Source: Candidatus Omnitrophota bacterium
Lineage (GTDB): Bacteria > Omnitrophota > Gorgyraeia > Zapsychrales > Zapsychraceae
NCBI GenBank assembly: GCA_029261065.1
Contig: JAJDCB010000028.1
Location: 447 to 64,446 of the forward strand
Direction: 5' to 3'
DNA: 64,000 bases
A model generated the notes under the pieces. It ran no database searches and had not been told where the DNA came from. It saw only the letters and a list, made by a program, of their open reading frames with translations. This document shows, in pieces, positions 12,001-64,000 of this stretch. Each line of letters opens with the position of its first letter. The stretch's first letter is position 1. The position numbers and the translations under genes were made by a program.

Positions 12001-15000
12001 CTTCATCTATAGTATTACCGTCATCACAAGATTCATTCCCATTAACAAGATCATCCCCACAAAATTCTGTAGGAGTACACGAATTATAAGAGCAATCCGA
12101 TTGGCACGATTGAATACCTTGATAGCCGTTAACGCTACAACTAAGAGAAGAGTTGCCTTCACATTCTTCGCCTAAACCAGGTTGAACAATGTTGTCACCG
12201 CAAGCTTCAAGAACACAAGTTGCGGAGCAACCGTCTTCATCCAAGTTATTACCGTCATCGCAAGCTTCACCCGTTTCAAGAACGTTGTTGCCGCAAGACC
12301 CTTGAGTGATACCAGTACAGAGGGCATTACAATTGTTAGGTGTGCCGTTGTTGACACCGTCATCACAAATTTCGCCACTTTCAAGAACATTGTTGCCACA
12401 AGAGCTTAGAGTGATTCCGCTACAGAGAGCATTACAATTGTTAGGCGTACCATTGTTAGCGCCATCATCACAAGATTCATTTCCATTAACAATATCGTCC
12501 CCACAAGATTCTGTAGGGGTACAAGAATTATAAGAGCAATCCAATTGGCAAGATTGAATACCTTGATAACCATTGAGGACACAATTAAGAGAAGAGTTGC
12601 CTTCGCATTCTTCACCTAAACCAGATTGAACAATGTTGTCCCCACAAGATTCAAGAACACAAGTCGCGGAGCAACCGTCTTCATTTGAGTTATTACCGTC
12701 ATCACAAGCTTCACCTGTTTCAAGAACGTTGTTGCCACAAGTCCCTTGAGTTGTACCAGTACAAAGGGCATTACAATTGTTAGGCGTGCCGTTGTTAGCG
12801 CCATCATCACAAGATTCATTACCATTAACAATATCGTCCCCACACGATTCGGTAGGAATACAAGAATTATAAGAGCAATCCAATTGGCAAGATTGAATAC
12901 CTTGATAACCATTGAGGACACAATTAAGAGAAGAGTTGCCTTCGCATTCTTCACCTAACCCAGATTGAACGATGTTGTCACCACAAGATTCAAGAACACA
13001 AGTCGAGGAGCAGCCATCTTCATCCGCATTATTACCGTCATCGCAAGCTTCACCCGTTTCAAGAACGTTGTTGCCGCAAGAGCCTTGAGTTGTACCAGAA
13101 CAGAGAGCATTACAATTGTTAGGCGTGCCGTTGTTAGCGCCATCATCACAAGATTCATTACCATTGACAATATCGTCCCCACAAGATTCGGTAGGGGTGC
13201 AAGAGTTGTAAGAGCAATCGGATTGGCAAGATTGGATGCCTTGATAACCATTAAGGACGCAATTAAGAGAAGAGTTGCCTTCACATTCTTCACCTAAACC
13301 AGATTGAACAATGTTGTCACCACAGGATTCGATAGTACAAATGGAAGAGCAGCCGTCTTGATCGACATTGTTACCATCGTCGCAAGCTTCAGCGCCTTCA
13401 AGGGTATTGTTGCCGCAAGATGCTAAAGTGATTCCGCTACATTCGGCGTTACAATGATTAGGGGTTCCGTTGTTCGTGCCGTCATCACATGCTTCAACTC
13501 CGTTTACAATGTTGTCCCCACAAAATTCTGTAGGGGCGCAAGAATTATAGGAACAATCATTTTTACAGGATTGTGTTCCGTTATAATTATCGATCACACA
13601 ATTAAGAGAAGAGTTGCCATCACATGCCTCGCCTAACCCAGGTTGAACAATGTTATCGCCACAAGATTCAAGAACACAGACAGAAGAGCAACCGTCTTCA
13701 TCCACGTTATTACCATCATCACAAGTTTCATTATCTTCAAGAATACTGTTGCCACAAGAGGCAGGAGTGGTTCCGCTACATTCGGCGTTACAAGAATTTG
13801 GCGTATTGTTGTTAGCGCCATCATCACACGATTCGTTTCCGTTTAAAATACCATCACCACAAGATTCGCTAGCGATACAGTTATTAAAGGTGCAGTTATT
13901 AAGACAGGATTGTGTTCCTACATATCCATTAATACTACAGCTTATGCTTTCGTTTCCTTCGCACTGTTCACCAAGTTCGTTTTGAACGATGTCATCGCCA
14001 CAAGATTCGATGTTACAAGTTGAAGAGCAGCCATCTTCATCCGTGTTGTTACCGTCATCACAAGCTTCATTGTTTTCTAGAATATTGTTACCACAAACAG
14101 CTTCAGTTATTGCAGTACAAGTATCATTACAATGATTAGCGCCTCCATTGTTAGCGCCATCATCACAGGTTTCGTTACCATTTAAAGTGCCATCGCCACA
14201 AAATTCGGTAGGTGAGCAAGTATCAAAAGAACAGGTATCTTGACATGATTGAATTCCGTTATAACCATTTATGATACAGCCAATCGTTGTGTTTCCTTCG
14301 CATTGTTCGGAAAGGCCATCTTGAACGATGCCGTCGCCGCAGAATTCATTTTGACATGTAGACGAGCAACCATCATTGGAGGAGAGGTTATGATCATCAC
14401 ATTCTTCACCAAGACCGGGTTGAATAACGTTATCCCCGCAAATTTCAAGTTTACATTCAGGAGAGCAGCCATCATTAGCATCATTGTTGCCATCATCACA
14501 AAGTTCGCCTAGTTCGAGTTGTCGGATGCCATCCCCACAAAGTTCAGCGGCACAATCTGGTGTACAACCATCATTGAAATCATTGTTACCATCATCACAC
14601 ACTTCACCTAATCCAGCTTGAATGATATTATCGCCACAAAATTCAGCGACACATAGATCGTTACATCCATCACCGGAATTGGAATTTCCGTCATCGCAAT
14701 TTTCACCTAAATTTGGCTGAATTGTTCCATCGCCACAAAATTCATTGACACAAATATTGTTACAGCCATCGCCATCAATGTTATTTCCGTCATCACAGGA
14801 TTCACCCGCTTCAATGATAGTGTTGCCGCAGACAGGTAATGTTGTGCCATTACATTGAGCGTTACAATGATTGGAGGTTCCGTTATTGTTACCATCATCA
14901 CACGTTTCATCGCCGTTTCGAATATCATCTCCACAGAACTCAGCAGTCGTACACGAATCAAATGAGCAGTTGCTTTGGCAAGTTTGAAGACCTTGGTAGC

Positions 15001-17977: not shown

Positions 17978-18290
17978 GTTAGCCACATCCATGACTTACT
18001 TGTTTTTTATATTTACTTAGTAAAAGTATAGAATCTAAGATATTAATAACAATGTGTAGGAGGGGATCTTAAGAAAGCGGTTTCTTGTAGAGAGTTATTA
18101 AGATATTTTGTTAACATAAGTTGTTTATTATCAATACTTTATGTATATTCGCATCGAGGAGGTGATAATGATAATTTAGAAATTAATAAAATATTGTGGG
18201 TTTTTAAGTAAGATTAATAGGAATCAACATTAATCATATTAGTAATAAGAAAAGAGATCGCTTAAGACTGATGCTATTGATTATAAATTG

Positions 18291-31009: not shown

Positions 31010-33175
31010 TTAAAATTTTGCTAGTTGTTGAACGATATCTTTAGCTAATGCACTGCCAATTTGCTTGATTTGAGAGATTTGTTCGGCGGGAACGCCTTTA
31101 AGGTCTTTAAATTTGGTGAAGTTGCTGGCAAACAAGACACGCGCACGAACACGTCCAACACCTTTAAGTTGTGTTAATTCGAGAAGCTCTTCTTTGATAC
31201 CATAACGCACGCGATTACGCAGGCGTTCAAGCTCGAAGGTGAGTTTCTTTTTTTGGAGCAGATGGGCGATGCGGCAGGTGGCATGTAGCAACCATTGCGT
31301 GGCCTCCACATGACGGTAAACATCTCCGGGTCCCGTTGAGAATTGATCACAGATTTTATCCTCGCGTTCTTCCTCGATCCAATGCATCAATAACCATGTT
31401 GTTTTAAGGGTTGCTAAATACGCATAAAGATCTTCGATGGCATGGCAATTTTCAGGTGTTAACAAAAAATCTTCGTTAAAGTGCGAAGCAAACTCTTCTA
31501 AATCCTGCATGTCTTTTTTCCCAATATTCATCCGTGGTCCATCGGGTGTGCAACAAACAAGGTGAAGGATTCCACAAGCGCTAGCTGGTTTATCATTGGG
31601 TAGAAGGTTTAACCCATCTCGAATTGTCATGGTTGTGATGGGATCAAGATACAGTCGACTCGTTAATTGACCGATGGGTGTGGGAAAAAAACGATAACCG
31701 CTTTTTTCGACAAATTTCTCACGATGCAAAAAATCAAAAATGTCTCCTACGACATCCATGAGATTGGCTTCAAGTCTTTGATGGTGGAGAAAGGTGTGGG
31801 ATAAAAATTCGAACATGCTGTTAACATCATGAACGTAGCCCGCCGAGATGGATGAGAGGATGTGAATACGTAATGATGCTTCATTGGCAAGTTTAGACAT
31901 GACAGGCTCAGGCTCGGCATTAATGTATTTATCAAAAAGGGTTGAGCTTTGAGAGTTAGTTTTAGCAACGAGCACAGCCTCACCGTAATCATCATATTGA
32001 GGGCGTCCGGCACGTCCTGCGCATTGTTTGTATTCGCTTGTTGGAATGTAGACTTGGCCGACTCCATTTGCAAAGCGTTTGCAATCACGGATAATAGCTC
32101 GACGGGCAGGAAGATTAACGCCAGCCGCTAATGTGGGTGTGCAGCCTATGACTTTGATCAAATTCTTTTTAAAATTTTCTTCAATCAATTCTCGTTGGGT
32201 TGGTTTTAATCCGGCATGATGAAAGGCGGCGCCTGAAGCTACGACATCGGCGAGTTGTTGACAAATTTTTGTAGAGTTAGCCTCCGTTCCGGCTATTTTT
32301 TTGGCGAGTTTTGTGAGATTAGCTTTTTCTTCTACAGTCAATGTCTGCGCGACACTTTTACTGACTTGACGACTTACTGCCTGCGCCGAACGTCTAGAAT
32401 TGACAAAGATCAAAACTTGTCCCTGACCTTTTAGAGTATCCAGAGATAGTTTGCTGACATCATCTGGAGCATCTTCTCTAATAAGCTTGGTGCCATGCTC
32501 GTTAAAGACAATTTCTTCATTAAAATACACGCCTTCTTTTAAGGGGATAGGACGGAAATCACTTTTAACCAATTCGGCATCAAGCCAGTCCGCCATTTCT
32601 TGAGCGTTACGTATCGTCGCACTAAGAGCCAAAAGTTGCGCATTCGGACTTAATTGCTTAATGCGTGCTGTCAAAATTTCCATGGTGGGCCCGCGCAATT
32701 CATCATTGATAAAATGAATTTCATCCAAGACGACAACGGAGAGTCCATCAATAAGCCATTGTGCTTTGGAACGTAGAAGCGAGTCTACTTTCTCAGCGGT
32801 AGCAATAATAATATCGTAACGATTTAAATTTTTTGAAGGGCTATCCATATCCCCAATCGCTAATCCAACTTTGATACCTAACGCTTCATATTTATCTTTA
32901 AAATCTTTAAATTTTTCACCGGCCAGTGCTTTTAAAGGGGCTATGTAAAGACATCTTCCTTTATTAAAAAGAATAGCGCGCAACATACATAATTCTGCCA
33001 TCAGTGTTTTTCCAGCAGCCGTTGGAACAGACATCAAAACACTGTTGCCTTTAAGTAATCCTTTTTCAATAGCTTCTGCCTGAGGGGGGTAAAGATCTTC
33101 AATTCCAGATGATGTTATAATGTTAATCGCTTGAGGTGGGAAATTATAGTCTTCGAGGGATTTTTTAAGTTTCAT
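31010..33175 (-). CDS. hel308: Hel308/Hjm-type (Ski2-like) SF2 DNA helicase
   Basis: ..LYPPQAEAIEKGLLKGNSVLMSVPTAAGKTLMAE.. (motif I), ..VVLDEIHFINDELRGPTMEIL.. (DEIH box), ..LLALSATIRNAQEMADWLDAELVKSDFRPIPL.. Collinear with archaeal Hel308 including the C-terminal HhH domain ..LKGVGRVRARVLF... 721 aa. Confidence 0.8.
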   Translation of the reverse strand: MKLKKSLEDYNFPPQAINIITSSGIEDLYPPQAEAIEKGLLKGNSVLMSVPTAAGKTLMAELCMLRAILFNKGRCLYIAPLKALAGEKFKDFKDKYEALGIKVGLAIGDMDSPSKNLNRYDIIIATAEKVDSLLRSKAQWLIDGLSVVVLDEIHFINDELRGPTMEILTARIKQLSPNAQLLALSATIRNAQEMADWLDAELVKSDFRPIPLKEGVYFNEEIVFNEHGTKLIREDAPDDVSKLSLDTLKGQGQVLIFVNSRRSAQAVSRQVSKSVAQTLTVEEKANLTKLAKKIAGTEANSTKICQQLADVVASGAAFHHAGLKPTQRELIEENFKKNLIKVIGCTPTLAAGVNLPARRAIIRDCKRFANGVGQVYIPTSEYKQCAGRAGRPQYDDYGEAVLVAKTNSQSSTLFDKYINAEPEPVMSKLANEASLRIHILSSISAGYVHDVNSMFEFLSHTFLHHQRLEANLMDVVGDIFDFLHREKFVEKSGYRFFPTPIGQLTSRLYLDPITTMTIRDGLNLLPNDKPASACGILHLVCCTPDGPRMNIGKKDMQDLEEFASHFNEDFLLTPENCHAIEDLYAYLATLKTTWLLMHWIEEEREDKICDQFSTGPGDVYRHVEATQWLLHATCRIAHLLQKKKLTFELERLRNRVRYGIKEELLELTQLKGVGRVRARVLFASNFTKFKDLKGVPAEQISQIKQIGSALAKDIVQQLAKF

Positions 33176-41126: not shown

Positions 41127-42875
41127 TTGTTGGTAGCACGAATGAAAAACAAAGACATTTCCAACCTATTTACCCGCATGGGCACCCTCCTTCAAATAAA
41201 AGGTGAAAACGTATTTAAAGTTCGCGCGTACTTCAAAGCCGCTGATAACATCAACAGTTTATCAGAAGATATTGCTATCTTTAGAGATGAAAAGCGATTA
41301 GGTGACATTCCTGGTGTGGGTAAAACGTTGCAAGAGAAGATTGGTGAGTATTTGGACACAGGAAAATTAACGGCTTATGATAAGTTGACTAAAGAAATTC
41401 CTGAGACAGTTTTAGATGTTATTTCCATTCCTTCGGTTGGACCTAAAAAGGCGAAATTATTTTTTGATGAATTAAAAGTTAAAGATATAGATATGCTTGA
41501 GAAATTGGCAAAGAACGGCAAGTTATTATCATTAGAAGGTATTAAGAGTAAGACGATCGAAAATGTTTTAAAGGGTATCAGAATTGTTCGTGAGGGCAAT
41601 AATCGGATGAATTTGGGTGCTGCGACAATGTGTGCTGAGGAGATTCTTGAACAGTTAAAGGTTTTAAAAGAAGTTAAACAGATATCTGTGGCCGGTTCTC
41701 TTCGTCGAGGACGAGAGACGATTGGTGATATTGATATTTTGGTGGCTTCTTCTGATGCTCAAAAAGTAATGGATGTCTTTGTCAGCTTACCAGAAGTTCG
41801 TTCGATTAATGCTCATGGAGAAACGAAGTCTTCTGTTATGACAAATAAAAATATCCAAGTGGATTTACGTGTGGTTGATTCTAACAATTTTGGAGCCGCA
41901 CTCCTTTATTTTACAGGAAGTAAAAATTTCAATATCAAATTGCGACAATTAGCGATCAAATCAAAAATGAAAGTCAGTGAGTATGGAATTTTTGATACCT
42001 CTTTAAAAAAGGAAAAATGTTTGGCGAGTAAGACTGAGAAAGAATGTTTTAAGGTTCTAGGGCTAGCTAACATTCCACCTGAATTAAGAGAAGACATTGG
42101 GATGGAAACTCTTTTTGATGAAAAAAAGAAAGTTAAGTTGCCTGCATTGATTGAACAAAAGGATATTCAAGGTGAGATTCATGTTCATTCGACATGGTCT
42201 GATGGGCGGCATTCGATTAAAGAAATGGCTGAAGCCGCTAGGAAACGTGGATACAGCTATTTAGCGATTAGTGATCATTCTTATAAACTGCGCATAGCTC
42301 GAGGTGTTTCGCCTGCTGATTTGATCAAAAAGAAAAAAGAGATTGATTCGCTTAATAAAACCTTTAAAAATTTTCGTATTTTATTTGGTAGTGAAGTAGA
42401 AATAGACAGTGAAGGAAATTTGGATTACAATGATAAAATCTTAAGCGAATTTGATATTGTCATTGGAGCGATTCATACAGGATTTGAACAAAGCTCTAAA
42501 CAACTGACACAACGGCTGATTAAGGCTTGTCAAAACAAACATGTGAATATGATTGCGCATCCCACTGGCGTTCATTTAGGAAAAAGAGATCCTTACGATT
42601 TTGATTTTAAAGCTGTTTGTCAGGCAGCCGTTGACAATAATGTCTGTTTAGAGATTAATTCATTTCCGATTCGCTTGGATCTTAATTCATCTAATATTTA
42701 TTTTGCTCGTGAGATGGGTGTTAAATTTGTTATTAACACAGATTCCCATCACATCAATCATCTAAACCATATGCGTTATGGAGTGACGCTTGCGCGGCGG
42801 GGGTGGTTGACGAAGAAGGATGTTGTGAATACGAAGGATGTGGGTGGGTTGCTTAAATCTTTTAAGAAAAGTTAA
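41127..42875 (+). CDS. polX: Family X DNA polymerase (Pol beta-like core) with C-terminal PHP phosphoesterase domain
   Basis: N-terminal HhH/Pol-beta motifs (..LGDIPGVGKTLQEKI.., ..GSLRRGRETIGDIDILV..) and C-terminal PHP (..IHVHSTWSDGRHSIKEMAEAARKRGYSYLAISDHS.., ..NTDSHH..). Confidence 0.85.
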   Translation: MLVARMKNKDISNLFTRMGTLLQIKGENVFKVRAYFKAADNINSLSEDIAIFRDEKRLGDIPGVGKTLQEKIGEYLDTGKLTAYDKLTKEIPETVLDVISIPSVGPKKAKLFFDELKVKDIDMLEKLAKNGKLLSLEGIKSKTIENVLKGIRIVREGNNRMNLGAATMCAEEILEQLKVLKEVKQISVAGSLRRGRETIGDIDILVASSDAQKVMDVFVSLPEVRSINAHGETKSSVMTNKNIQVDLRVVDSNNFGAALLYFTGSKNFNIKLRQLAIKSKMKVSEYGIFDTSLKKEKCLASKTEKECFKVLGLANIPPELREDIGMETLFDEKKKVKLPALIEQKDIQGEIHVHSTWSDGRHSIKEMAEAARKRGYSYLAISDHSYKLRIARGVSPADLIKKKKEIDSLNKTFKNFRILFGSEVEIDSEGNLDYNDKILSEFDIVIGAIHTGFEQSSKQLTQRLIKACQNKHVNMIAHPTGVHLGKRDPYDFDFKAVCQAAVDNNVCLEINSFPIRLDLNSSNIYFAREMGVKFVINTDSHHINHLNHMRYGVTLARRGWLTKKDVVNTKDVGGLLKSFKKS

Positions 42876-56403: not shown

Positions 56404-56583
56404 CACGAATCAAATATTTTTTACCCAGTGATGATTTTAATCTGACCGAAGAAAGGGGGGATGAAAACTAGATTGGTCTGAAGTCATCGAAGAAACTGGT
56501 TCTATGGTCGAAATAATCTAGGCCATTTAGTACCTAGTTATATATATAGATAAAAGTTGTAAAACTTTTTGGAGGAGACACAA

Positions 56584-58020
56584 ATGAGAAAATTAACATT
56601 GTTAGCGACACTATTTGCAGTAGCTATTATGGCTGTGCCAGCGTCAGCTAACGTTCAGACAATTAAAGTAAGTGGTGCTATAAACCAGATGTTCATCTGG
56701 AGAAACAACTTTGACTTTGGTCGAGCATCTTCTGGTGAAGCCAGACAACATCTTTTGGCTGCACAAGCCCATGTTGATGTTGATGCTGATTTAACAGATC
56801 AAATCTCAGCTGGTTTTAGTATCTTTAACGAAAGAGCTTTAGAAGCAGATTCATCTACTTCTACAGATCTTAACTTAAGTCGAGCATTTTTCGTTATTCG
56901 TCAAATGCTTTACACCCCGATGACAGTAACAGCTGGTCGTCATCCTTTCAGTTATGGTAATTCCTTAATAATTGATTCAACTGGTGCTAACAATGTTGCT
57001 CCAGGAGATTCCAATTTAGCTGGATTAGCCAATGACCTTACTGGTCAGACATCGCAAGATGCCGTTCGTATTACATTTGATTATGAACCATTAGTATTAG
57101 AATTGTTATTTTCAAAAATAACACCTAATACTGCTGCAGCTGCTGCAGAAGACAATGATGACCATGATCTTTATGGTATCAATGCCACATGGGAAGCAAA
57201 TGATGATGCGAATTCAGTTGTTGAAGCTTACTTTTTTGCAAGCTACAACAGAGCTACTGAAGGTAATGCGACTGGACCAGCAATTGGTAAAGTGGATACA
57301 ATCTATACTCCAGGGTTTAGATTTAGCACAACACCAATAGAAGGTCTAAACATCCAAGGTGAGCTTGCTCATCAGGGTGGTACAAAAGCTGATTCATCTG
57401 ATGCTGATAACCAACGCAGACGTCACGCGTATGCAGCTCAGCTTATTAGTAACTATGAAGTTCCAGATGGCATTTTGCCTGATGAAGTAGGTGAAATGGA
57501 TCCAGTATTGCAATACATCTTTACATATGCTTCAGGTGACAGCAATACGGCAGGAGCGAATTGTCAAGGGGCTGGATGTTCTCATGAAACGTACACAGCA
57601 TGGGATCCTCTTTATGAAAATCAAGGTGGAGGAACTATTTATAACTCTATTTTTGATCTTTCTAACTTGATCATTCATTCTATTTCTCTTCAATTAAATC
57701 CAATGGAAGACGTGACAACAAAGGTAAGTTGGCATGGTCTTTGGAGAGATAATGAAGTTCCTGGTGTAAGTGGTGTTGGATCAGCTGGATCAACAGAAAC
57801 ATTCAAAAGTCCTAACGTATCTGGCGGTACTCAAACATTGAGTGTTGTTGGTGGTGAGGACTTCTATGGTTACGAAGTTGATTGGGAAACTACTTATGAT
57901 TACACTGAAGATTTTCAAATCGGTGTAAACTTTGGTATTTTCAATCCAGGTCAAGTTTTTAATGGCCGAAACAACCAGGCTGCATCACAAGCTATTGTTA
58001 ATGGAAATGTTGCATTCTAA
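56584..58020 (+). CDS. Outer-membrane beta-barrel porin-like protein
   Basis: ATG at 56584 after the RBS GGAGGAG. Signal peptide MRKLTLLATLFAVAIMAVPASA. Alternating amphipathic beta-strand pattern and C-terminal ..GNVAF (terminal Phe, an OMP signature). Followed by a strong intrinsic terminator. Confidence 0.6.
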   Translation: MRKLTLLATLFAVAIMAVPASANVQTIKVSGAINQMFIWRNNFDFGRASSGEARQHLLAAQAHVDVDADLTDQISAGFSIFNERALEADSSTSTDLNLSRAFFVIRQMLYTPMTVTAGRHPFSYGNSLIIDSTGANNVAPGDSNLAGLANDLTGQTSQDAVRITFDYEPLVLELLFSKITPNTAAAAAEDNDDHDLYGINATWEANDDANSVVEAYFFASYNRATEGNATGPAIGKVDTIYTPGFRFSTTPIEGLNIQGELAHQGGTKADSSDADNQRRRHAYAAQLISNYEVPDGILPDEVGEMDPVLQYIFTYASGDSNTAGANCQGAGCSHETYTAWDPLYENQGGGTIYNSIFDLSNLIIHSISLQLNPMEDVTTKVSWHGLWRDNEVPGVSGVGSAGSTETFKSPNVSGGTQTLSVVGGEDFYGYEVDWETTYDYTEDFQIGVNFGIFNPGQVFNGRNNQAASQAIVNGNVAF

Positions 58021-58051
58021 TTTCTAGTTAACAATTGTTTTACATATAAAA

Positions 58052-58088
58052 CGTCCTTACTGCTAATGCGGTAAGGACGTTTTTTTTA
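58052..58088 (+). terminator. Rho-independent terminator of the porin gene
   Basis: cgtccttac-tgctaatgcg-gtaaggacg (9-bp perfect stem, 10-nt loop) followed by a run of 9 T. Confidence 0.85.
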
Positions 58089-58153
58089 TGCACATTTTAT
58101 GCATAAAAATAACAGACGTTTTTTTATGCACATTTTATGCATAAAAATAACGA
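58077..58153 (+). repeat. 38-bp tandem duplication containing the palindromic motif ATGCA-N7-TGCAT twice
   Basis: gacgtttttttttatgcacattttatgcataaaaataaca / gacgtttttttatgcacattttatgcataaaaataacga. Each copy contains atgcacattttatgcat. Confidence 0.7.
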
Positions 58154-58485
58154 ACAATTTTTATGTTGAAGAACTAATTCAAAAATAGCGAGCATTTTAT
58201 TTAGAAGCCTTGACGTAAAAATCAAAATAAGAAAGTATAATTTTGATCAAAAAAACGTTTTATTTGTAAAAACCTTTTTCTTAACCGAGCTCTCGACGAG
58301 GAGTTATTGAAAATAGTTGTAAAAAAGTTAAAATACTGTTTCTTTTTAAATAATAATTTGTTAATATAAAAACAATCAAAAAGCTTTCCGATGTATTTAA
58401 GAGATATGACTTTACGGAAATATAGCTTTTTATTGAAAGACACACTTCTCGCAAGAAAATTTAGAATAGTTCATTTAGGAAAATT

Positions 58486-59061
58486 ATGACACGCGATGAT
58501 ATCTACGATCACTTAGCTCAAGTATATTTGGGTAAACGTAAAGAAGTCGACGAGCGAAAAACTCGTCAGTTTAATGCATGGTTGGTTATTAATATTGCTA
58601 TTACGTTTATTGTTTTTGCAAGTGCGACATATGGTCTAACGGCCTTTTTAACGAACCGTTCTGACTTTTTGGATAATCGTATTATTTATGCCTTGCATCA
58701 AGGTAAGATCCGTCTAGAGTACAATTTATTCGAACCCTACGCCCCAGTTAAGACATTTGCTTTAAATGTTCCTTCTATTGATGCCAGCAAATACAAAAGC
58801 ATTCAATTTTCTATTCGTGGTAAAGAAGAAGGGACTCCAGGTGTCGTCAAAATTGTGGTTAGAAATTTTAAAAATGAATCATCTTCTTATTACATTCAGG
58901 GAGTCGGCCTTAAATGGCAAGATTTCGATATCTCTTTAAGTGAATTTCAACAAATTACAGATTGGTCTAACATTATTGATGTATCCTTTGTTCTTGAGAC
59001 GTGGAATGTGGATAAGAAAAAAGGAATTATTTTAATTGAAGATGTTAGCTTTTCAAGTTAA
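58486..59061 (+). CDS. Single-pass membrane protein with extracytoplasmic beta-sandwich (CBM-like) domain, hypothetical
   Basis: Cytoplasmic N-terminus, TM helix WLVINIAITFIVFASATYGLTAFL, then a ~130-aa domain with an alternating beta pattern (..KSIQFSIRGKEEGTPGVVKIVVRNF.., ..IDVSFVLE.., ..ILIEDVSF). Confidence 0.4.
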   Translation: MTRDDIYDHLAQVYLGKRKEVDERKTRQFNAWLVINIAITFIVFASATYGLTAFLTNRSDFLDNRIIYALHQGKIRLEYNLFEPYAPVKTFALNVPSIDASKYKSIQFSIRGKEEGTPGVVKIVVRNFKNESSSYYIQGVGLKWQDFDISLSEFQQITDWSNIIDVSFVLETWNVDKKKGIILIEDVSFSS

Positions 59062-59134
59062 CCATTTGTGAGGAATGTTTCACATTTGCTTATCATAAAG
59101 CATTCCGATAAGACTAAAGGAGGGTATTTCTCTT

Positions 59135-60493
59135 ATGAAAATTATTTCAATCGCAAATCAAAAAGGTGGTTGCGGTAAGACGACCACAGCGATTAATTTA
59201 GCAGCGGCGTTAGGCCTAAACGGCAAGAGGGTCATGTTGCTGGATTTGGATCCACAAGCGCACGCTTCTTTAGGTTTGGACATTGAGAGCCAAGACAGTT
59301 TGTATAATGTCATCTCCAATCTCACACCTCGTAAATTAAAGATTGAAAATATTATCAAAAGTGTTGAAGGGATTTTTGATATTGTCCCATCGAACATTCT
59401 TGTCGGAACTTTAGAGCAGGAATTGGCCGATGAGATTGGACGAGAGTTAAAGTTAACAGAAATTTTAAAAGCTGTTGAAGGCCAATATGATTATGTTTTG
59501 ATTGATTGTCCACCTAGTTTAGGAATTTTAACGGTCAATGCATTGCGTGCTAGTAATGAATTGATTATTCCAGTTGAAACAAGCCGTTTTTCCATGCAAG
59601 GGGTAGATCATTTGACAGACATCGTTAATTTAGTTAAAGATCGATTAAATCATACAGTTAAAAGTAATATATTAGTTACGATGTTTGATTCTCGTTTACG
59701 TCATTCTTTTGCAATGTTATCAACATTTAAGGAACGTTTTACAGGGTTGTTGTTTGATACGATTATCCATATTAATGTTAAGCTTAAAGAGTCCGCGGTT
59801 ATGGGAAAGCCTGTGTCAAGTTATGACAAATATTGTCGAGGATCAAAGGATTATTATTCTTTAGCAAAAGAGATGATTTCGATTGAGGCTCAGGAAGAAA
59901 GAAGACTTGAAGAGGCTCAAGAAACCGCTCAAGAAGAAGATGAGCCAAAAGATAGTCGTATTGAAAAGGTTGTCCGCGCTATTCGTGAAGCTCAAGAAGA
60001 GCAAAAGGTCGCTAAAGAACAAAGACAAGAAGTTAAGGCACAAGAAAAAGAAGCTAAAGCAGTAGCTAAGGAAGACGCCGCCAAAGCTGAAGAAAAAAGT
60101 GCCGAGACTAAGAAACCTCGTGTTAAAGTAACCCCGGAGGCAAAAGAAGCTCCAGATTTTAAACCCCTGTCCGATAAAATGAAGGCAGTGGTTAAAAAAG
60201 AAGTTCAAGATTTAATGGAGACAAAATTTTGGATTGATGCCGCTGGTGCAAAATCCGTTTATGTTACAGGAAGTTTTAATGATTGGTCGTTAGATGAAAA
60301 TTGTCGTCTCAAAAATAACAACGGCCGATGGGAAGCATCCATCCCTCTTAAGGGTGGAGTTTACAAATATCAATTTATTGTTGATGGTGTTTGGAGAGAA
60401 GATCCCAATAATCCGAGAAAAGAAAGAAACTCATTTGGCGATATTAACTCTCTTGTTGAGGTAAGCACCGATGGGCAAACGCAAGCCGTCTGA
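59135..60493 (+). CDS. ParA/MinD-family P-loop ATPase fused via a Glu/Lys-rich linker to a C-terminal AMPK-beta-type glycogen-binding domain (CBM48)
   Basis: Deviant Walker A MKIISIANQKGGCGKTTTAINLAAALG.., ..LLDLDPQA.., ..YVLIDCPPSLG.. (ParA). Residues ~255-360 are an E/K/A-rich low-complexity stretch. The C-terminus ..TKFWIDAAGAKSVYVTGSFNDWSLDENCRLKNNNGRWEASIPLKGGVYKYQFIVDGVWREDPNNP.. matches the AMPK beta GBD / CBM48 consensus. Confidence 0.75.
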   Translation: MKIISIANQKGGCGKTTTAINLAAALGLNGKRVMLLDLDPQAHASLGLDIESQDSLYNVISNLTPRKLKIENIIKSVEGIFDIVPSNILVGTLEQELADEIGRELKLTEILKAVEGQYDYVLIDCPPSLGILTVNALRASNELIIPVETSRFSMQGVDHLTDIVNLVKDRLNHTVKSNILVTMFDSRLRHSFAMLSTFKERFTGLLFDTIIHINVKLKESAVMGKPVSSYDKYCRGSKDYYSLAKEMISIEAQEERRLEEAQETAQEEDEPKDSRIEKVVRAIREAQEEQKVAKEQRQEVKAQEKEAKAVAKEDAAKAEEKSAETKKPRVKVTPEAKEAPDFKPLSDKMKAVVKKEVQDLMETKFWIDAAGAKSVYVTGSFNDWSLDENCRLKNNNGRWEASIPLKGGVYKYQFIVDGVWREDPNNPRKERNSFGDINSLVEVSTDGQTQAV

Positions 60494-60797
60494 GAATGAG
60501 CTGATTCTTGAAGGGAAAACGTTTGCCATATTATCCTACCTTTCTATTTGTTGTATCATTCCTCTAGTATTCAAAAAAGACAATGAATTTGTCCTAAGAC
60601 ACAGTAAACAGGGTCTTGTATTGTTTGTAGCCGAGGTAGCTATTTTCGTCTTGCATATTTTATTAGGTGTTTGGATATGGAAGTGGGGAATGTTTATCTT
60701 AGGATCTCTTTCTTTTATTGGTATTATTTTTGTTTTAAGAGGGCAGTATGTTAATCTGCCTATCATTTCAGATATCGCCGAAAAATTAACAATTTAA
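60471..60797 (+). CDS. DUF4870-like small membrane protein
   Basis: ..KTFAILSYLSICCIIPLVFKKDNEFVLRHSKQGLVLFVAEVAIFVLHILLG.. resembles the TM2/DUF4870 pattern. Overlaps the ParA-fusion 3' end by 23 nt. Confidence 0.45.
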   Translation: MGKRKPSENELILEGKTFAILSYLSICCIIPLVFKKDNEFVLRHSKQGLVLFVAEVAIFVLHILLGVWIWKWGMFILGSLSFIGIIFVLRGQYVNLPIISDIAEKLTI

Positions 60798-60823
60798 CTC
60801 CTTTCTTAGAAGAAGACTTTTTT

Positions 60824-61393
60824 ATGTCGCGGCTTGACAATTTTCTAAAATCTTTATCTCAATTTTTTCATCTTCCCAAAAAGACTTCTCGTAAAAAGAA
60901 AGTCACTCCAAAAAAGAAAACAAAAAAAACAACTGCAAAAAAGATAAAGCGTGCTGTTAAGAAAAAATCAGCAGCTAAATCCAAGTCAACAAAGACTAAA
61001 AAGAGTGTTGCCAAAAAGAAGAAAACGGCGACTGTTAAGAAAAAGAAGTCTGTTAAAAAGGTAGCTAAAAAAACCAAGGTTAGTTCAAAGCCTAAAAAGA
61101 AGACTTCTCTAAAAAAAGTTAAAACTCCAGAGTTTGAGGGGGAACACGTGGGAGAAGTGACTCATTTTTTTCCAAAAATTCAGGTGATTGTACTAAAAAT
61201 GGAGAAAGCTAAGCTCAAGCTAGGAGACACAATTCATCTGAAAGGTCCCCAAACAGATTTTAAACAGCGTATTGATTCTCTTCAAATTGAAAGCCGTGAT
61301 GTTAAGTCAGCCAAAAAGGGCCAATTGGTTGGATTAAAAGTGAAAAAAAAGGCAAAAATCGGAGATAAGTGCTTTAAAACAATAAATTTATGA
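60824..61393 (+). CDS. Histone H1-like Lys/Ala-rich DNA-binding protein with C-terminal EF-Tu domain-2-like beta-barrel
   Basis: Residues ~20-100 are KKKTKKTTAKKIKRAVKKKSAAKSKSTKTKKSVAKKKKTATVKKKKSVKKVAKKTKVSSKPKKKTSLKKVKT. The C-terminal ~85 aa ..GEVTHFFPKIQVIVLKMEKAKLKLGDTIHLKGPQTDFKQRIDSLQIESRDVKSAKKGQLVGLKV.. resembles the small stand-alone EF-Tu-domain-2-like proteins. Confidence 0.55.
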   Translation: MSRLDNFLKSLSQFFHLPKKTSRKKKVTPKKKTKKTTAKKIKRAVKKKSAAKSKSTKTKKSVAKKKKTATVKKKKSVKKVAKKTKVSSKPKKKTSLKKVKTPEFEGEHVGEVTHFFPKIQVIVLKMEKAKLKLGDTIHLKGPQTDFKQRIDSLQIESRDVKSAKKGQLVGLKVKKKAKIGDKCFKTINL

Positions 61394-61412
61394 ATTCTGA
61401 CAATTTTTGACA

Positions 61413-61447
61413 TTTCTTGGTCTTTTTAGTAATAATATGTTATATTT
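61413..61447 (+). promoter_or_regulatory. Candidate sigma-70 promoter (TTGACA-17 nt-TAATAAT) for the pilin-leader giant gene
   Basis: tttTTGACAtttcttggtctttttagTAATAATatg, ~50 nt upstream of the ATG at 61501. Confidence 0.3.
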
Positions 61448-61500
61448 ATATTAAAGTTTAGTTTATGTTCCAAAAATTTTAATTTTGATACCCCCTACAA

Positions 61501-64000
61501 ATGAGTAAGATTAATAAAAAAGGCCAAAATGCTGTTGAATACTTGCTTATGATTGCAAGTATTGTCTTACTGCTCATCATTGTCCTTGGCCCCAATGGAT
61601 TTCTCACCAAAAGTATTAATGATTCTTTAAATCAAGCTGTTGATGGCATTGATAGTCTTTCCAATTCACTGTGTTTTGGTGTTGGAGGAGGAACGTGCGT
61701 TTGTGGAGACGGTGTCATTGATCCTGACGAAGATTGTGATGATAGTAATACTGATGCGACAGATGGATGCCATAATTGTAGAAGAACGGGTGTTTGTGGT
61801 AACGCTTTACTTGAAGCAGGGGAGGATTGCGAGCCATCAGGTCCAGCAGATACGACGTGTACGCAAAGTTGTAAATTTCCAGCAGGTGTTAATTTTTGCG
61901 GAAACAATGCTTGCGATGGAGCTGAGAACTGTAACTCGTGTCCTTTAGATTGTGGGAATTGTTGTGGACAGTTGGGTTGTCAGGCTGGTTTTGGGGAAAC
62001 CTGTGCGACATGTCCTGGAGATTGTCCTGTTCCAGGATCCCCATTTGGACCTTGTTGCGGGGATGCTATTTGTAATTTATCCGAAACATTTCTTACGTGT
62101 CCAGCGGATTGTGTGAATACATGTGGAAATAATATTTGTAATACTGGAGAGACGTGTGCGACGTGTCCTGGAGATTGTGGCGCTTGTCCAGCTAATATTT
62201 GTGGGGATGGGCAATGTGATTCTGGTGAGGATTGTAATGGGTGTCCTGGTGATTGTGGAGCTTGCTGTCCCAATGGAGCATGCGATTTTGGCGAAGATTG
62301 TTCATCTTGTGAAGCAGATTGTGGGGCGTGTTCTCCAGGTGGCTGTGGGACTGATAGTTTTTGTGATGTGGGTGCCGGAGAAACCTGTAGCAGTTGTCCA
62401 GAGTGCTGTTGTGGGGATAACTTTTGTGATGCTTCTCCTACGGGTGGAGAAACATGTTCAAATTGTCCAATCGACTGCGGGGCGTGTTGTGGGGATAATG
62501 TTTGTAATACATCTCAAGGAGAGGATTGTTCAACGTGTTTTGCTGATTGTGGGGGATGTGGTATTTGCGGAGATGGCCCTTGTTTAGCTATTGATGGTGA
62601 AAACTGTTCTACTTGTCCTTTAGATTGTGGCTCTTGTCCATCAATTTGTCCTGATGGAACCTGTTTAGGCGTTACCATAGTCGCTGGCGTACCAATCCCT
62701 GAAGACTGTGCTAGTTGTCCCCAGGATTGTGGATCTTGCCAGCCAGGATGTGGTGATGGTTCGGGATGTGATGCAACAGCAGGTGAAAATTGTTTAAATT
62801 GTTCTCCTGATTGTGGTGGGTGTTGTGGAAATGGTATTTGTGATTTTTTTGAAGATGTTTTTACATGTCAAGTCGATTGCGATGATGTGTGTGGGGATTT
62901 CTTTTGTAGTGATTCAGAAGATTGTTTAGGTTGTCCCCTAGATTGTGGAGCGTGTGAAGTTGCTTGTACGGATTTAGGGAGTACTGGAGATAACATTTGT
63001 TCTCCTCCTATGGAGACGTGTTTAACGTGTCCAAGTGAGTGTGGTGCTTGTTCTGCTGTTGGATGTGGTAACGGTACTTGTGAAATTATTGAGAACTGCT
63101 TTACGTGTTCGTTTGATTGTGGGGTATGTTGTGGAGATGGAACATGTACCATAGGAGTTGAAGATTGTATAAGTTGTTCATCGGACTGTGGAGACTGTTC
63201 TGACTGTGGTAATAATAATTGTGACGCGGGAGAAACCTGTTTTAATTGTTCTGACGATTGTTCACTGTGTTGTGGTGATGGAGACTGTTCTGTTCTTGAG
63301 AATTGTAGTGTTTGTCCAGCAGACTGTGGAAATTGTCAAACACCCTGTGGCAATGGAACGTGCGATATTGGGGAAACTTGTTATACATGCCCACAGGATT
63401 GTTTTTCACCCACGACAGGATGTTGCGGCGATGGCGCTTGTCCTGTCTTTATCGAAAATTGTTCAACGTGTCGTGCCGATTGTGGAGATTGTGATGATTG
63501 TGGAGATGGAGATTGTAACACGTTAGATGGGGAAAGTTGTTTGAGTTGTCAGGATGATTGTGGTCTGTGTTGTGGAGATACAGTTTGTGATACGGACACA
63601 GAAACATGTGAAACATGTCCTACCGATTGCTGTCCAAGTTGTGGGGATAATAATCTCGATGCAGGTGAAGAATGTGATGATGGGAATAACGCTTCCGGAG
63701 ATGGCTGTGCCGGCGATTGTACGAATGAACCTCTAAATTGTGGGGATTGTATCGTGCAAGCCGGGGAAGATTGTGATGATTGTAATAATGTCGATAATGA
63801 TGGATGTACCAATCTGTGTCGGGGGGGCGTGTGTGGAGATAGTGTTGTCAATACAGGAGAACAATGTGATCCTCCGGATGTGGCCACTGGTTGTAATGCT
63901 TTTTGTAATTTTGAATTTTGTGGGGATGGTGATATCCAAACGGGTGAAGATTGTGATCCTCCTAGTGCAGGTACTTGCTCCTCTACTTGTAAATTTATAG
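61501..64000 (+). CDS. Giant Cys-rich repeat protein with N-terminal Flp/TadE-type (class III, prepilin) signal peptide. Partial: continues beyond the window end; >=833 aa in window
   Basis: N-terminus MSKINKKG|QNAVEYLLMIASIVLLLIIVLG: basic n-region, Gly then Glu at +5 and Tyr at +6, followed by ~20 hydrophobic residues (Flp/TadE/archaeal pilin motif G-x-x-A-x-E-Y). Then >20 units of C-P-x-D-C-G-x-C / C-G-D-G-x-C-D type repeats. The last ~130 aa switch to Myxococcus-type repeats (..CGDNNLDAGEECDDGNNASGDGCAGDC.., ..CGDGDIQTGEDCDPP..). No stop before 64000; the frame is not in the ORF track because it is incomplete. Confidence 0.75.
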   Translation, partial: MSKINKKGQNAVEYLLMIASIVLLLIIVLGPNGFLTKSINDSLNQAVDGIDSLSNSLCFGVGGGTCVCGDGVIDPDEDCDDSNTDATDGCHNCRRTGVCGNALLEAGEDCEPSGPADTTCTQSCKFPAGVNFCGNNACDGAENCNSCPLDCGNCCGQLGCQAGFGETCATCPGDCPVPGSPFGPCCGDAICNLSETFLTCPADCVNTCGNNICNTGETCATCPGDCGACPANICGDGQCDSGEDCNGCPGDCGACCPNGACDFGEDCSSCEADCGACSPGGCGTDSFCDVGAGETCSSCPECCCGDNFCDASPTGGETCSNCPIDCGACCGDNVCNTSQGEDCSTCFADCGGCGICGDGPCLAIDGENCSTCPLDCGSCPSICPDGTCLGVTIVAGVPIPEDCASCPQDCGSCQPGCGDGSGCDATAGENCLNCSPDCGGCCGNGICDFFEDVFTCQVDCDDVCGDFFCSDSEDCLGCPLDCGACEVACTDLGSTGDNICSPPMETCLTCPSECGACSAVGCGNGTCEIIENCFTCSFDCGVCCGDGTCTIGVEDCISCSSDCGDCSDCGNNNCDAGETCFNCSDDCSLCCGDGDCSVLENCSVCPADCGNCQTPCGNGTCDIGETCYTCPQDCFSPTTGCCGDGACPVFIENCSTCRADCGDCDDCGDGDCNTLDGESCLSCQDDCGLCCGDTVCDTDTETCETCPTDCCPSCGDNNLDAGEECDDGNNASGDGCAGDCTNEPLNCGDCIVQAGEDCDDCNNVDNDGCTNLCRGGVCGDSVVNTGEQCDPPDVATGCNAFCNFEFCGDGDIQTGEDCDPPSAGTCSSTCKFI

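What the first reader, a model, noticed from the sequence alone, without database searches (positions are those of the whole stretch)
61413..64000. Giant cysteine-rich repeat protein that starts with a Flp/TadE-type prepilin (class III) signal peptide
The N-terminus MSKINKKG|QNAVEYLLMIASIVLLLIIVLG has a basic n-region, the G/+5 Glu/+6 Tyr signature and a ~20-residue hydrophobic helix. These are the hallmark of Flp pilins, TadE/TadF pseudopilins and archaeal pilins processed by a TadV/CpaA/PibD-type prepilin peptidase. Here it is followed by at least 800 aa (still open at the window end) of disulfide-rich C-x-x-C and CGDGxCD repeats. Tad-type pilins are normally 50-150 aa, and a pilin-leader protein of this size and composition is unusual. 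It could be a pilus-tip or pilus-associated giant adhesin, or a surface protein that borrows the prepilin-peptidase route for membrane anchoring. It shares the terminal Myxococcus-type repeats with the minus-strand giant gene.
Basis: partly seen in the sequence, partly recalled or inferred. Interest (0 to 1): 0.7.

Follow-up and report, generated by a model that had tools for sequence, protein, structure and literature searches.

The report
Flp-like pilin fused to cysteine-rich stalk
An Omnitrophota bacterium has taken a tiny, pilus-subunit-like protein that its relatives make as a 57-90 residue peptide and extended it with hundreds of residues of disulfide-rich repeats. The result is probably a surface fibre or adhesin exported by the prepilin route, though no processing or assembly genes lie in this window.

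Summary
The ORF starts at ATG 61501, not 61413, and stays open for 833 codons to the window end. The N-terminus is MSKINKKG|QNAVEYLL..., and the protein has 162 Cys. Its first 60 residues match Pfam Class_IIIsignal above threshold, but Flp_Fap only below threshold. They align in register (Glu5/Tyr6) with solved Tad pilins. They belong to a family of at least 330 proteins in which G/A(-1), Q(+1), E(+5) and Y(+6) are nearly invariant.

The window is bacterial, from Candidatus Omnitrophota. The gene occupies one conserved chromosomal slot. In 13 other loci the same slot holds a protein of 57, 62, 64, 80, 90, 144, 472, 580, 792, 956 or 1425 aa. So this is a stand-alone mini-pilin module onto which Cys-rich repeats were grafted: Myxococcus-type DUF4215 repeats plus an unannotated ~24-aa six-Cys repeat.

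"Giant" is not shown. No prepilin peptidase or Tad genes occur in the 64 kb window or in the syntenic flanks, so processing and polymerisation are inferred, not shown. In Bacteriovoracia, a protein with the same motif sits inside a canonical Tad locus.

Verdict: a new variant of a known kind (modular pilin), of moderate interest.

The parts
61407..61446 (+). Promoter-like region. Holds TTGACA-18-AATAAT (61407-61436) and an extended -10-like TGTTATATT (61438-61446).
   Evidence: Consensus scan gives 11 of 12 matches. A TGTTATAyTT element recurs 30-60 nt upstream of the start codon in orthologous loci L002, L003, L006, L008, L026 and L027. Function is inferred.
61501..63999 (+). Partial ORF, 833 codons with no stop before the window end. 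It encodes a modular Flp-like/class III pilin-leader protein.
   Evidence: Translation. Open stretch 61489-63999. The identical junction appears in the independent assembly L001.
61501..61524 (+). Predicted leader peptide MSKINKKG (residues 1-8). It is basic and ends in Gly at -1.
   Evidence: Sequence. Position -1 is G in 116 and A in 27 of 150 family members. Register against mature Tad pilins 8u1k/8u2b. Cleavage itself is inferred.
61525..61680 (+). Mini-pilin module (residues 9-60). It reads QNAVEY, then a ~22-residue hydrophobic helix, a GPNG break and an amphipathic second helix.
   Evidence: PF04021 25.6 bits (cut-off 23.7); Flp_Fap 20.1 bits, below threshold. AF2 pLDDT 89.7 with helices 6-29 and 34-56. 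A profile of the module finds 330 proteins, most 56-75 aa long.
61681..61965 (+). Proximal cysteine-rich acidic (Myxococcus-type / DUF4215) repeats, residues 61-155.
   Evidence: PF13948 31.8 bits; TIGR02232 25.1 bits.
61966..63642 (+). Central array of about 20 diverged 21-27 aa six-Cys repeats, residues 156-714. Consensus is CGDGxCDxGExCxxCPxDCGxC.
   Evidence: Motif parse finds 19 copies. No DNA-level tandem repeat. No Pfam or NCBIfam family. AF2 pLDDT 66.7, with one short helical turn per repeat and otherwise coil.
63643..63999 (+). Distal Myxococcus-type / DUF4215 repeats, residues 715-833. Truncated by the window end.
   Evidence: PF13948 34 bits; TIGR02232 62.1 bits in 3 stretches.
56569..61393 (+). 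Conserved upstream neighbourhood (context, not shown to be functionally linked). It holds an Alginate_exp-like OM barrel, a 191-aa hypothetical protein, a ParA/MinD ATPase with a CBM48 domain, a 108-aa membrane protein, and a Lys-rich protein with an EF-Tu-D2-like barrel.
   Evidence: Pfam. tblastn synteny in 13 independent Omnitrophota loci. Gene tables of orthologous contigs.

Best explanation
This is a modular pilin of the Flp/Tad-archaeal (class III signal) type in a Candidatus Omnitrophota bacterium.

Shown:
- Residues 1-60 are the orthologue of a stand-alone 57-90 aa two-helix mini-pilin. Other Omnitrophota encode it at exactly this chromosomal slot.
- In this lineage and several others, the C-terminus of that gene carries a disulfide-rich repeat array. 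Here it consists of DUF4215/Myxococcus repeats flanking about 20 copies of an unannotated 24-aa six-Cys repeat.

Inferred mechanism:
1. The precursor inserts into the inner membrane by its hydrophobic helix.
2. An A24-family (TadV/CpaA-like) prepilin peptidase removes MSKINKKG after Gly8. This leaves Gln1...Glu5-Tyr6.
3. The pilin module is then taken up by a Tad-like type IV filament machine encoded elsewhere in the genome. Given the bulk of the tail, uptake is most likely at the tip or sparsely along the filament.
4. The oxidised, acidic Cys-rich stalk is thereby displayed outside the outer membrane. There it acts as an adhesive or spacer fibre for attachment to surfaces or host cells.
For: Class III signal:
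- PF04021 scores 25.6 bits against a cut-off of 23.7 on the N-terminus.
- 35 of 53 family modules hit PF04021 and 19 of 53 hit Flp_Fap.
- The best solved-structure sequence matches are Tad pilins 8u1k (E = 0.008) and 8u2b, with E5/Y6 in register.
- Motif conservation over 150 members: G/A(-1) in 143, Q(+1) in 141, E(+5) in 144, Y(+6) in 142.

Pilin-sized module:
- 330 relatives at E <= 1e-3. Among the best 150, 76 have 15 or fewer residues beyond the module.
- The AF2 model is two helices at pLDDT 89.7.

Orthology and grafting:
- The same slot lies between the Lys-rich/EF-Tu-D2-like gene and a ~140-aa gene in 13 loci. Products there range from 57 to 1425 aa.
- All long tails have 9-20% Cys.

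Tad substrate by analogy:
- A Bacteriovoracia protein with the same motif lies directly after Peptidase_A24 in a full Tad locus.

Phylum context from papers:
- Tad complexes occur in Omnitrophota (PMC10066038).
- Small class III-signal genes lie near T2SS/T4P-like loci in Omnitrophota (bioRxiv 10.1101/2023.11.21.568195).
- Grafting functional modules onto pilins is a documented strategy (PMC8179133).

Own promoter-like element.
Against: - Flp_Fap is below its gathering score (20 vs 32.2 bits). TadE gave no hit at E <= 10, and NCBIfam returned no pilin-family hit at E <= 1.
- No A24 peptidase, T2SSE/T2SSF, RcpC or secretin gene lies in the 64 kb window.
- None lies in the flanks of the syntenic loci either. 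Those flanks are housekeeping genes: rpsO, pnp, ftsK, rodZ.
- The window's genome could not be found in the collections, so presence of the machinery is untested.
- Near-invariant Gln at +1 is, from general knowledge, more typical of archaeal class III signals than of bacterial Flp.
- A tail of 770 aa or more would hinder packing into a filament body.
- Fold searches of the module gave nothing specific.
- The repeat model is low-confidence.
Confidence: 0.55

Rival explanations
1. Uncleaved signal-anchor. The N-terminal helix is simply a type II membrane anchor inserted by Sec/YidC, and it holds a periplasmic Cys-rich domain. The conserved GQ..EY motif serves some other role, such as helix-helix packing in the membrane.
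For: No prepilin peptidase or pilus machinery lies in the window or in the syntenic flanks. Flp_Fap is below threshold. The locus is a housekeeping neighbourhood.
Against: A charged Glu at a fixed position inside the hydrophobic helix, together with Gly/Ala at -1, is conserved in about 95% of 150 members. That is the class III signature, and it aligns in register with solved Tad pilins. Most family members are only the 60-aa module, a size and two-helix shape typical of Flp pilins. Proteins with the same motif sit inside a canonical Tad locus in Bacteriovoracia.
Confidence: 0.2
2. Processed but not polymerised. The class III signal is used only as an export or anchoring device. The mature protein stays anchored in the inner membrane, or forms a short pseudopilus-like stub in the periplasm rather than an extracellular pilus. 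This would resemble archaeal sugar-binding proteins of the bindosome, or T2SS pseudopilins.
For: Large non-pilin proteins with class III signals are known in archaea (PMC3047682). The bulky tail argues against regular packing. There is one copy per locus, away from pilus genes.
Against: In a diderm, a 770 to >1300 aa acidic repeat stalk confined to the periplasm has no obvious role; the window encodes an OM beta-barrel, and Omnitrophota are treated as Gram-negative. Short orthologues with no cargo would be pointless as mere anchors.
Confidence: 0.18
3. Artefact. The pilin-like start and the Cys-rich frame are joined by misassembly or are a pseudogene. Alternatively, the segment is archaeal contamination.
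For: Repeat-rich genes often break assemblies: the Logan contig and several orthologous contigs end inside the gene. PF04021 is an archaeal family.
Against: An independent assembly is 100% identical across the junction. Complete orthologues with the same architecture exist in at least 5 other genomes. The frame runs 2.5 kb without a stop. Flanking genes are bacterial, including sigma-70 and an OM barrel, and are syntenic with Omnitrophota MAGs.
Confidence: 0.02

Closest known systems
Flp/Tad (type IVc) pilins, e.g. Caulobacter crescentus PilA (PDB 8u1k) and an Flp family type IVb pilin (8u2b)
   Same: Both have a short basic leader ending in Gly, and Glu5-Tyr6 in the mature protein. Both have a ~20-residue hydrophobic helix and no globular beta domain. 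The module is about 50 mature residues with a predicted two-helix shape. These pilins are the best sequence matches among solved structures, and they align in register.
   Different: The Flp_Fap HMM is below its gathering score. Gln at +1 is nearly invariant. The gene is not next to tad genes. Here the module carries at least 770 extra residues.
Archaeal class III signal peptide proteins (Pfam PF04021), including large non-pilin substrates such as Sulfolobus bindosome sugar-binding proteins (PMC3047682)
   Same: The best-scoring HMM family, above threshold on the N-terminal piece. It has a Q-x-[SA]-x-E-type motif. These proteins set a precedent for big cargo behind a class III signal.
   Different: The organism is a bacterium, Omnitrophota. 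The cargo is a Cys-rich repeat array, not a solute-binding domain.
Modular type IV pilins (Streptococcus sanguinis PilB/PilC; survey in PMC8179133)
   Same: The design principle is the same: a small pilin module with a functional or adhesive module grafted onto its C-terminus, probably displayed at the tip.
   Different: Those were defined by the T4a-type N-methylation domain (IPR012902, G|F/M-x-x-x-E) and a globular pilin head. Here the carrier is a headless Flp-like module. The graft is a repeat array whose length varies from 0 to more than 1300 aa among orthologues.
Small class III-signal genes near T2SS/T4P-like loci of Omnitrophota (bioRxiv 10.1101/2023.11.21.568195); Tad complexes in Omnitrophota (PMC10066038)
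   Same: Same phylum and same kind of signal. These papers provide the probable processing and assembly machinery.
   Different: Those genes are described as small and adjacent to the secretion locus that precedes giant genes. This one lies in a conserved housekeeping neighbourhood and is fused to a long tail. Whether they belong to the same family was not tested.
Myxococcus cysteine-rich acidic repeat / DUF4215 proteins (TIGR02232, PF13948)
   Same: Residues 61-155 and 715-833 score above both curated cut-offs. The neighbouring giant ORF shares these repeats.
   Different: The central ~560 residues use a different six-Cys repeat (CxxCPxDCGxC) with no model in Pfam or NCBIfam. Of the 120 listed repeat homologues, only two (P0038 and P0118) start with a class III signal.

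Membership tests
Flp/Fap pilin (PF04964; type IVc/Tad major pilin) | HMM score at or above the Pfam gathering threshold | tested here: not met
   14.0 bits for the whole protein and 20.1-20.4 bits for the N-terminus, against a cut-off of 32.2. 19 of 53 family modules hit at E <= 0.01.
Flp/Fap pilin (PF04964; type IVc/Tad major pilin) | G|XXXXEY processing motif followed by a ~20-residue hydrophobic helix | tested here: met
   KKG|QNAVEY followed by LLMIASIVLLLIIVLG. Conserved across 150 relatives. In register with mature 8u1k/8u2b.
Flp/Fap pilin (PF04964; type IVc/Tad major pilin) | Small mature protein (~40-60 aa) without a globular domain | tested here: not met
   The window protein is at least 833 aa. 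The module alone, and the short orthologues of 57-90 aa, do meet this feature.
Flp/Fap pilin (PF04964; type IVc/Tad major pilin) | Encoded with, or in a genome with, tadV/cpaA, rcpCA and tadZABC | tested here: inconclusive
   None found in the 64 kb window or in the syntenic flanks. The rest of the genome is unavailable. The phylum has Tad systems (PMC10066038).
Flp/Fap pilin (PF04964; type IVc/Tad major pilin) | Cleaved by a prepilin peptidase and polymerised into a filament | not testable with these tools
   Needs biochemistry or imaging.
Class III signal peptide (PF04021, archaeal-type) | HMM score at or above the gathering threshold | tested here: met
   25.6-25.8 bits on the first 60-66 aa against a cut-off of 23.7. 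The score is 20.8 bits when the whole 833 aa is scored. 35 of 53 family modules hit.
Class III signal peptide (PF04021, archaeal-type) | Archaeal host | tested here: not met
   Sigma-70, a LacI-type regulator and an Alginate_exp OM barrel are present. The locus is syntenic with contigs titled Candidatus Omnitrophota bacterium.
Type IVa pilin / T2SS pseudopilin (N_methyl, G|[FM]xxxE) | Phe/Met at +1 and an N_methyl HMM hit | tested here: not met
   +1 is Gln. No N_methyl hit at E <= 10.
TadE/TadF/TadG pseudopilins (PF07811) | TadE-like N-terminal HMM hit | tested here: not met
   No TadE hit at E <= 10.
Modular pilins (sensu Raynaud et al. 2021, PMC8179133) | N-terminal pilin module plus an extra C-terminal module not specific to pilus biology | tested here: met
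   A 60-aa module orthologous to stand-alone proteins, followed by DUF4215 and novel repeats. The survey's formal criterion, IPR012902, is not met.
Myxococcus cysteine-rich acidic repeat / DUF4215 | TIGR02232 / PF13948 above curated cut-offs | tested here: met
   TIGR02232 scores 62.1 and 25.1 bits (cut-off 20.8). PF13948 scores 34 and 31.8 bits (cut-off 27). These hits appear on excised segments only. Whole-protein scans reported nothing.

The most novel reading that the evidence does not exclude
The conserved-slot mini-pilin may be the main subunit of an Omnitrophota-specific filament or surface-display system. In that case, lineages like this one would give every subunit a several-hundred-residue disulfide-rich stalk, producing a 'bottle-brush' fibre. 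The assembly partner might not be a classical Tad locus. It could instead be the co-conserved neighbours: the OM barrel, the ParA/MinD-CBM48 ATPase, the small membrane protein, and the tightly linked ~140-aa protein. Tail length (0 to more than 1300 aa) would then be a rapidly evolving host- or surface-specificity determinant of these ultra-small, host-dependent bacteria.
Probability: 0.12. Interest if true: 0.8.

Novelty: new variant of a known kind. Interest (0 to 1): 0.55.

Why it matters
Omnitrophota are uncultured, mostly ultra-small bacteria thought to live as predators or parasites (PMC10066038). How they attach to partners is unknown.

This locus offers a concrete, phylum-wide candidate. 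A headless Flp-like pilin at a fixed chromosomal position has a C-terminus that repeatedly acquired disulfide-rich repeat arrays. Orthologues range from 57 to more than 1400 residues.

- It extends the 'modular pilin' idea from T4a pilins to the minimal Flp/archaeal-type module.
- It gives a natural series for asking how much cargo a type IV filament subunit can carry.
- It flags an unannotated six-Cys repeat that is widespread in environmental surface proteins.

The hypothesis is directly testable by a cleavage assay, by co-occurrence analysis in the new complete genomes, and by imaging of enrichments.

Tried and rejected
- **Extending the ORF.** Exact-match scans of genome contigs and metagenome contigs found nothing. 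Look-up by the upstream protein gave only a 4.5 kb Logan contig that ends inside the gene. The true length therefore remains unknown.
- **Word-indexed homologue search.** A search with the 3-sequence module alignment returned nothing. The exhaustive HMM search was needed.
- **The search for related loci with the 53-sequence alignment.** A narrower 8-sequence alignment worked.
- **AF2 of the repeat region.** pLDDT was 66.7 and pTM 0.29. That is too weak for a fold search, so none was run.
- **Looking for Tad genes next to a non-syntenic copy (L016).** The neighbours are aconitase, LexA, Ddl-like, PfkB and peptidases, not pilus genes.
- **The ~140-aa downstream protein.** No Pfam, NCBIfam or PDB relative was found.
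- **Rejected readings.** Archaeal origin (the neighbours are bacterial); a Sec signal peptide with an AXA site (none is present, and a Glu sits inside the h-region); T4a pilin or T2SS pseudopilin (no N_methyl hit, Gln at +1); recent DNA-level repeat amplification (no tandem DNA repeats).
Full report
**1. What is in the sequence**

The open stretch starts at 61489, and the first start codon is ATG 61501.

From there the + strand reads MSKINKKGQNAVEYLLMIASIVLLLIIVLGPNGFLTKSINDSLNQAVDGIDSLSNSL.... It stays open for 833 codons to the end of the window.

- The region 61407-61446 holds a near-consensus TTGACA-18-AATAAT site.
- It also holds a TGTTATATT element. Variants of this element (TGTTATAyTT) recur 30-60 nt upstream of the start codon in orthologous loci. 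The gene therefore probably has its own promoter.
- After residue 60 the protein is 20.8% Cys, 14.9% Gly and 12.7% Asp, with almost no Lys or Arg.
- An independent Logan assembly (L001, SRR15505515) is 100% identical over window 58122-62596, which spans the junction between the N-terminal module and the Cys-rich part. The fusion is therefore not an assembly artefact.

**2. Repeat anatomy**

- Residues 61-155 and 715-833 are Myxococcus-type cysteine-rich acidic repeats.
  - PF13948/DUF4215 scores 31.8 and 34 bits, against a cut-off of 27.
  - TIGR02232 scores 25.1 and 62.1 bits, against a cut-off of 20.8.
  - These hits appear only when the segments are excised. Whole-protein scans returned nothing.
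- Residues 156-714 hold 19 recognisable copies of a different 21-27 aa unit, consensus CGDGxCDxGExCxxCPxDCGxC.
  - This unit has no Pfam or NCBIfam model.
  - It has no DNA-level tandem repeat, so the copies are old and diverged.
  - AF2 on residues 230-442 gives only pLDDT 66.7. Each repeat shows one short helical turn at CPxDC and is otherwise coil. This is compatible with a string of small disulfide-locked beads but is not reliable.
- The minus-strand giant ORF (2-17995, at least 5998 aa, running off the window) starts with an ordinary Sec-type signal.
  - It has 17 DUF4215-like motif copies and none of the central type.
The main repeat of this protein is a different one.

**3. The N-terminus is a class III signal**

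- On the first 66 residues, Pfam Class_IIIsignal (PF04021) scores 25.6 bits, above its gathering score of 23.7.
- Flp_Fap (PF04964) scores 20.1 bits, below its cut-off of 32.2. No TadE or N_methyl hit appears at E <= 10.
- A profile of the 61-residue module was searched against all PDB chain sequences.
  - The two best hits are the Caulobacter Tad pilin PilA (8u1k, E = 0.008) and an Flp family type IVb pilin (8u2b).
  - Mature residues 3-6 (AIEY) of those pilins align on A-V-E-Y here. This puts the predicted cleavage exactly between Gly8 and Gln9.
- AF2 with a 53-sequence alignment models the module at pLDDT 89.7: helix 6-29, a GPNG break, then helix 34-56.
- Structure searches with this tiny helical model were uninformative.

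**4. The module is a family of its own**

An exhaustive HMM search of 1.84 billion representative proteins found 330 proteins at E <= 1e-3, and 49 at E <= 1e-10.

Motif conservation over the 148 best hits plus the two alignment seeds (150 sequences in all):

| Position | Residue | Count of 150 |
|---|---|---|
| -1 | Gly | 116 |
| -1 | Ala | 27 |
| +1 | Gln | 141 |
| +5 | Glu | 144 |
| +6 | Tyr | 142 |

Number of residues beyond the module among the same 150:

| Residues beyond module | Members |
|---|---|
| 15 or fewer (whole proteins of 56-75 aa) | 76 |
| 16-60 | 24 |
| 61-200 | 24 |
| 201-500 | 14 |
| more than 500 (largest protein 1425 aa in total, P0261) | 12 |

- Every long tail is 9-20% Cys.
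- Some tails contain CGNGCCEPGE-type, thrombospondin-like (GGWSxWSxWSxC) or Pro/Gly-rich segments.
- Of 53 modules scanned individually, 35 hit PF04021 and 19 hit Flp_Fap.

**5. Organism and locus**

The neighbours are bacterial and of diderm type: sigma-70, a LacI-type regulator, an Alginate_exp-like OM barrel, PPDK, PNPase and others.

Contigs carrying relatives are titled Candidatus Omnitrophota, or 'uncultured Planctomycetales' for some TPA MAGs.

The gene sits in a fixed slot. Its order is:
1. Alginate_exp barrel
2. 191-aa protein
3. ParA/MinD ATPase with a C-terminal CBM48/AMPK glycogen-binding domain
4. 108-aa membrane protein
5. Lys-rich protein with an EF-Tu-domain-2-like barrel
6. 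**this gene**
7. conserved ~140-aa protein
8. ... rpsO-pnp-ftsK-rodZ-miaB-pgsA

tblastn recovers this order in 13 independent loci (gene tables).

The product at the slot varies in length:

| Locus | Length (aa) |
|---|---|
| L006 | 57 |
| L005 | 62 |
| L012 | 64 |
| L015, L018 | 80 |
| L008 | 90 |
| L013 | 144 |
| L011 | 472 |
| L003 | 580 |
| L002 | 792 |
| L027 | 956 |
| L026 | 1425 |
| this window | at least 833 |

The window protein is therefore the orthologue of a bare mini-pilin whose C-terminus has been extended. 'Giant' is not established.

**6. Machinery**

- No Peptidase_A24, T2SSE, T2SSF, RcpC or secretin gene is present in the 64 kb window.
- None is present in the flanks of the syntenic loci either. 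A non-syntenic copy (L016) also lacks them.
- The window's genome could not be located.
- Indirect support comes from a Bacteriovoracia contig (L023).
  - A 105-aa protein with the same NQKGQSAVEYILL motif lies immediately after a Peptidase_A24 gene.
  - That locus also contains Flp, TadE-like, RcpC, secretin, a TadZ-TadA fusion and TadB.
- The literature reports Tad complexes in many Omnitrophota (PMC10066038).
- It also reports small genes with class III signal peptides beside T2SS/T4P-like loci in the phylum (bioRxiv 10.1101/2023.11.21.568195, section 11).

**7. Interpretation**

The best-supported reading is a modular pilin.
- The carrier is a headless Flp/archaeal-type pilin module.
- The cargo is an acidic, disulfide-rich repeat stalk.

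The inferred steps are:
1. Membrane insertion.
2. Cleavage at G8|Q9 by an A24 peptidase.
3. Incorporation into a Tad-like filament, probably at the tip given the bulk of the tail.
4. Display of the stalk for adhesion.

This follows the logic shown experimentally for T4a modular pilins such as S. sanguinis PilB (PMC8179133).

What is shown: the signal type, the family, the orthology and the grafting. What is inferred: cleavage, assembly, location and function.

The main rivals are an uncleaved signal anchor and a processed but non-polymerised protein. They remain open mainly because no machinery is linked to the gene. Misassembly and archaeal contamination are excluded.

**8. Novelty**

Several elements are already known:
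- class III signals in Omnitrophota;
- modular pilins;
- large class III-signal substrates in archaea, and (from general knowledge) large TadG-type pseudopilins;
- DUF4215 repeats.

I did not find the following described in the papers searched:
- a single orthologous, Flp-like, headless pilin gene at a conserved housekeeping locus across a phylum;
- a C-terminal tail on that gene ranging from zero to more than 1300 residues of Cys-rich repeats.

I rate it a new variant of a known kind, with interest 0.55.

Noticed in passing
window 2-17995 (- strand): A giant ORF, at least 5998 aa, running off the window start. It has an ordinary Sec-type signal peptide (MLKRFAIIVVLTYSIFLPNQQGWA), what look like FN3-type segments, and then about 1750 aa of DUF4215/Myxococcus Cys-rich repeats (12% Cys, residues ~400-2150). 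This fits the giant genes reported for Omnitrophota. Unlike the published pattern, no T2SS/T4P-like secretion locus lies directly upstream: 18-31 kb holds Lnb_N, RsmB, glycosyltransferases and AstB.
   Followed up: partly
L002 12384-12815; L003 11809-12192; L006 10159-10611; L026 14288-14713; L027 7995-8438 (downstream of the window end by synteny): A conserved ~140-aa soluble protein (RRYLIWCYKTTKE...DRIDRYYTQ...AIEKAI..FLG.KEL...YE.EMT.RIL.A.EH). It follows the pilin-like gene in the orthologous loci, within 4-65 nt in the four loci with called genes (L002, L003, L026, L027). The pairing holds even on a 562-bp contig (L004). It has no Pfam, NCBIfam or PDB relative. It may be co-transcribed with the pilin-like gene and functionally linked to it.
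   Followed up: partly
window 59135-60493 (+): A ParA/MinD-family ATPase (AAA_31, E = 6e-54) fused to a C-terminal CBM48/AMPK glycogen-binding domain. It is conserved at this locus across Omnitrophota, together with an Alginate_exp-like OM barrel (56569-58020), a 191-aa protein, a 108-aa membrane protein with a weak MamF/MmsF-like hit, and a Lys-rich protein with an EF-Tu-D2-like barrel (60824-61393). Its function is unknown. TadZ/CpaE are also ParA/MinD-type ATPases, but no link was shown.
   Followed up: partly
window 61438-61446 and equivalent positions in L002, L003, L006, L008, L026, L027: A conserved TGTTATAyTT element (extended -10-like) lies 30-60 nt upstream of the pilin-like start codon in distantly related Omnitrophota. 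This suggests a conserved, probably strong, dedicated promoter and a ~50-nt leader.
   Followed up: partly
proteins P0123, P0138, P0143, P0152, P0175, P0220, P0249: Other members of the mini-pilin family carry thrombospondin type-1-like repeats (GGWSxWSxWSxC...TRxC) instead of, or in addition to, Cys-rich CGNGCCEPGE segments. The grafted cargo is therefore diverse.
   Followed up: no
L016 and L019 (both Omnitrophica WOR_2 RIFCSPHIGHO2_02_FULL_50_17): Two near-identical copies of the module occur in one MAG. Both lie at contig ends, so the genes are probably long repeat-bearing versions that break the assembly. L016's neighbours are not the usual syntenic ones.
   Followed up: partly
L023 13764-15866: The Bacteriovoracia Tad locus encodes a 700-aa fusion of a ParA/MinD-like (TadZ-type) domain and a T2SSE (TadA/CpaF-type) ATPase.
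   Followed up: no
window 31010-33175 (- strand) and 41127-42875 (+): A Hel308-like helicase with the 'archaeal helicase domain 4' (PF21280), and a PolX-PHP DNA polymerase. Both are unusual repair genes for a bacterium with a small genome.
   Followed up: no
whole-protein HMM scans of window 61501-64000: Pfam and NCBIfam scans of the full 833-aa protein reported no DUF4215 or TIGR02232 hit. The excised segments scored well above the cut-offs. Routine annotation will therefore under-call these repeats in very Cys-rich proteins.
   Followed up: yes
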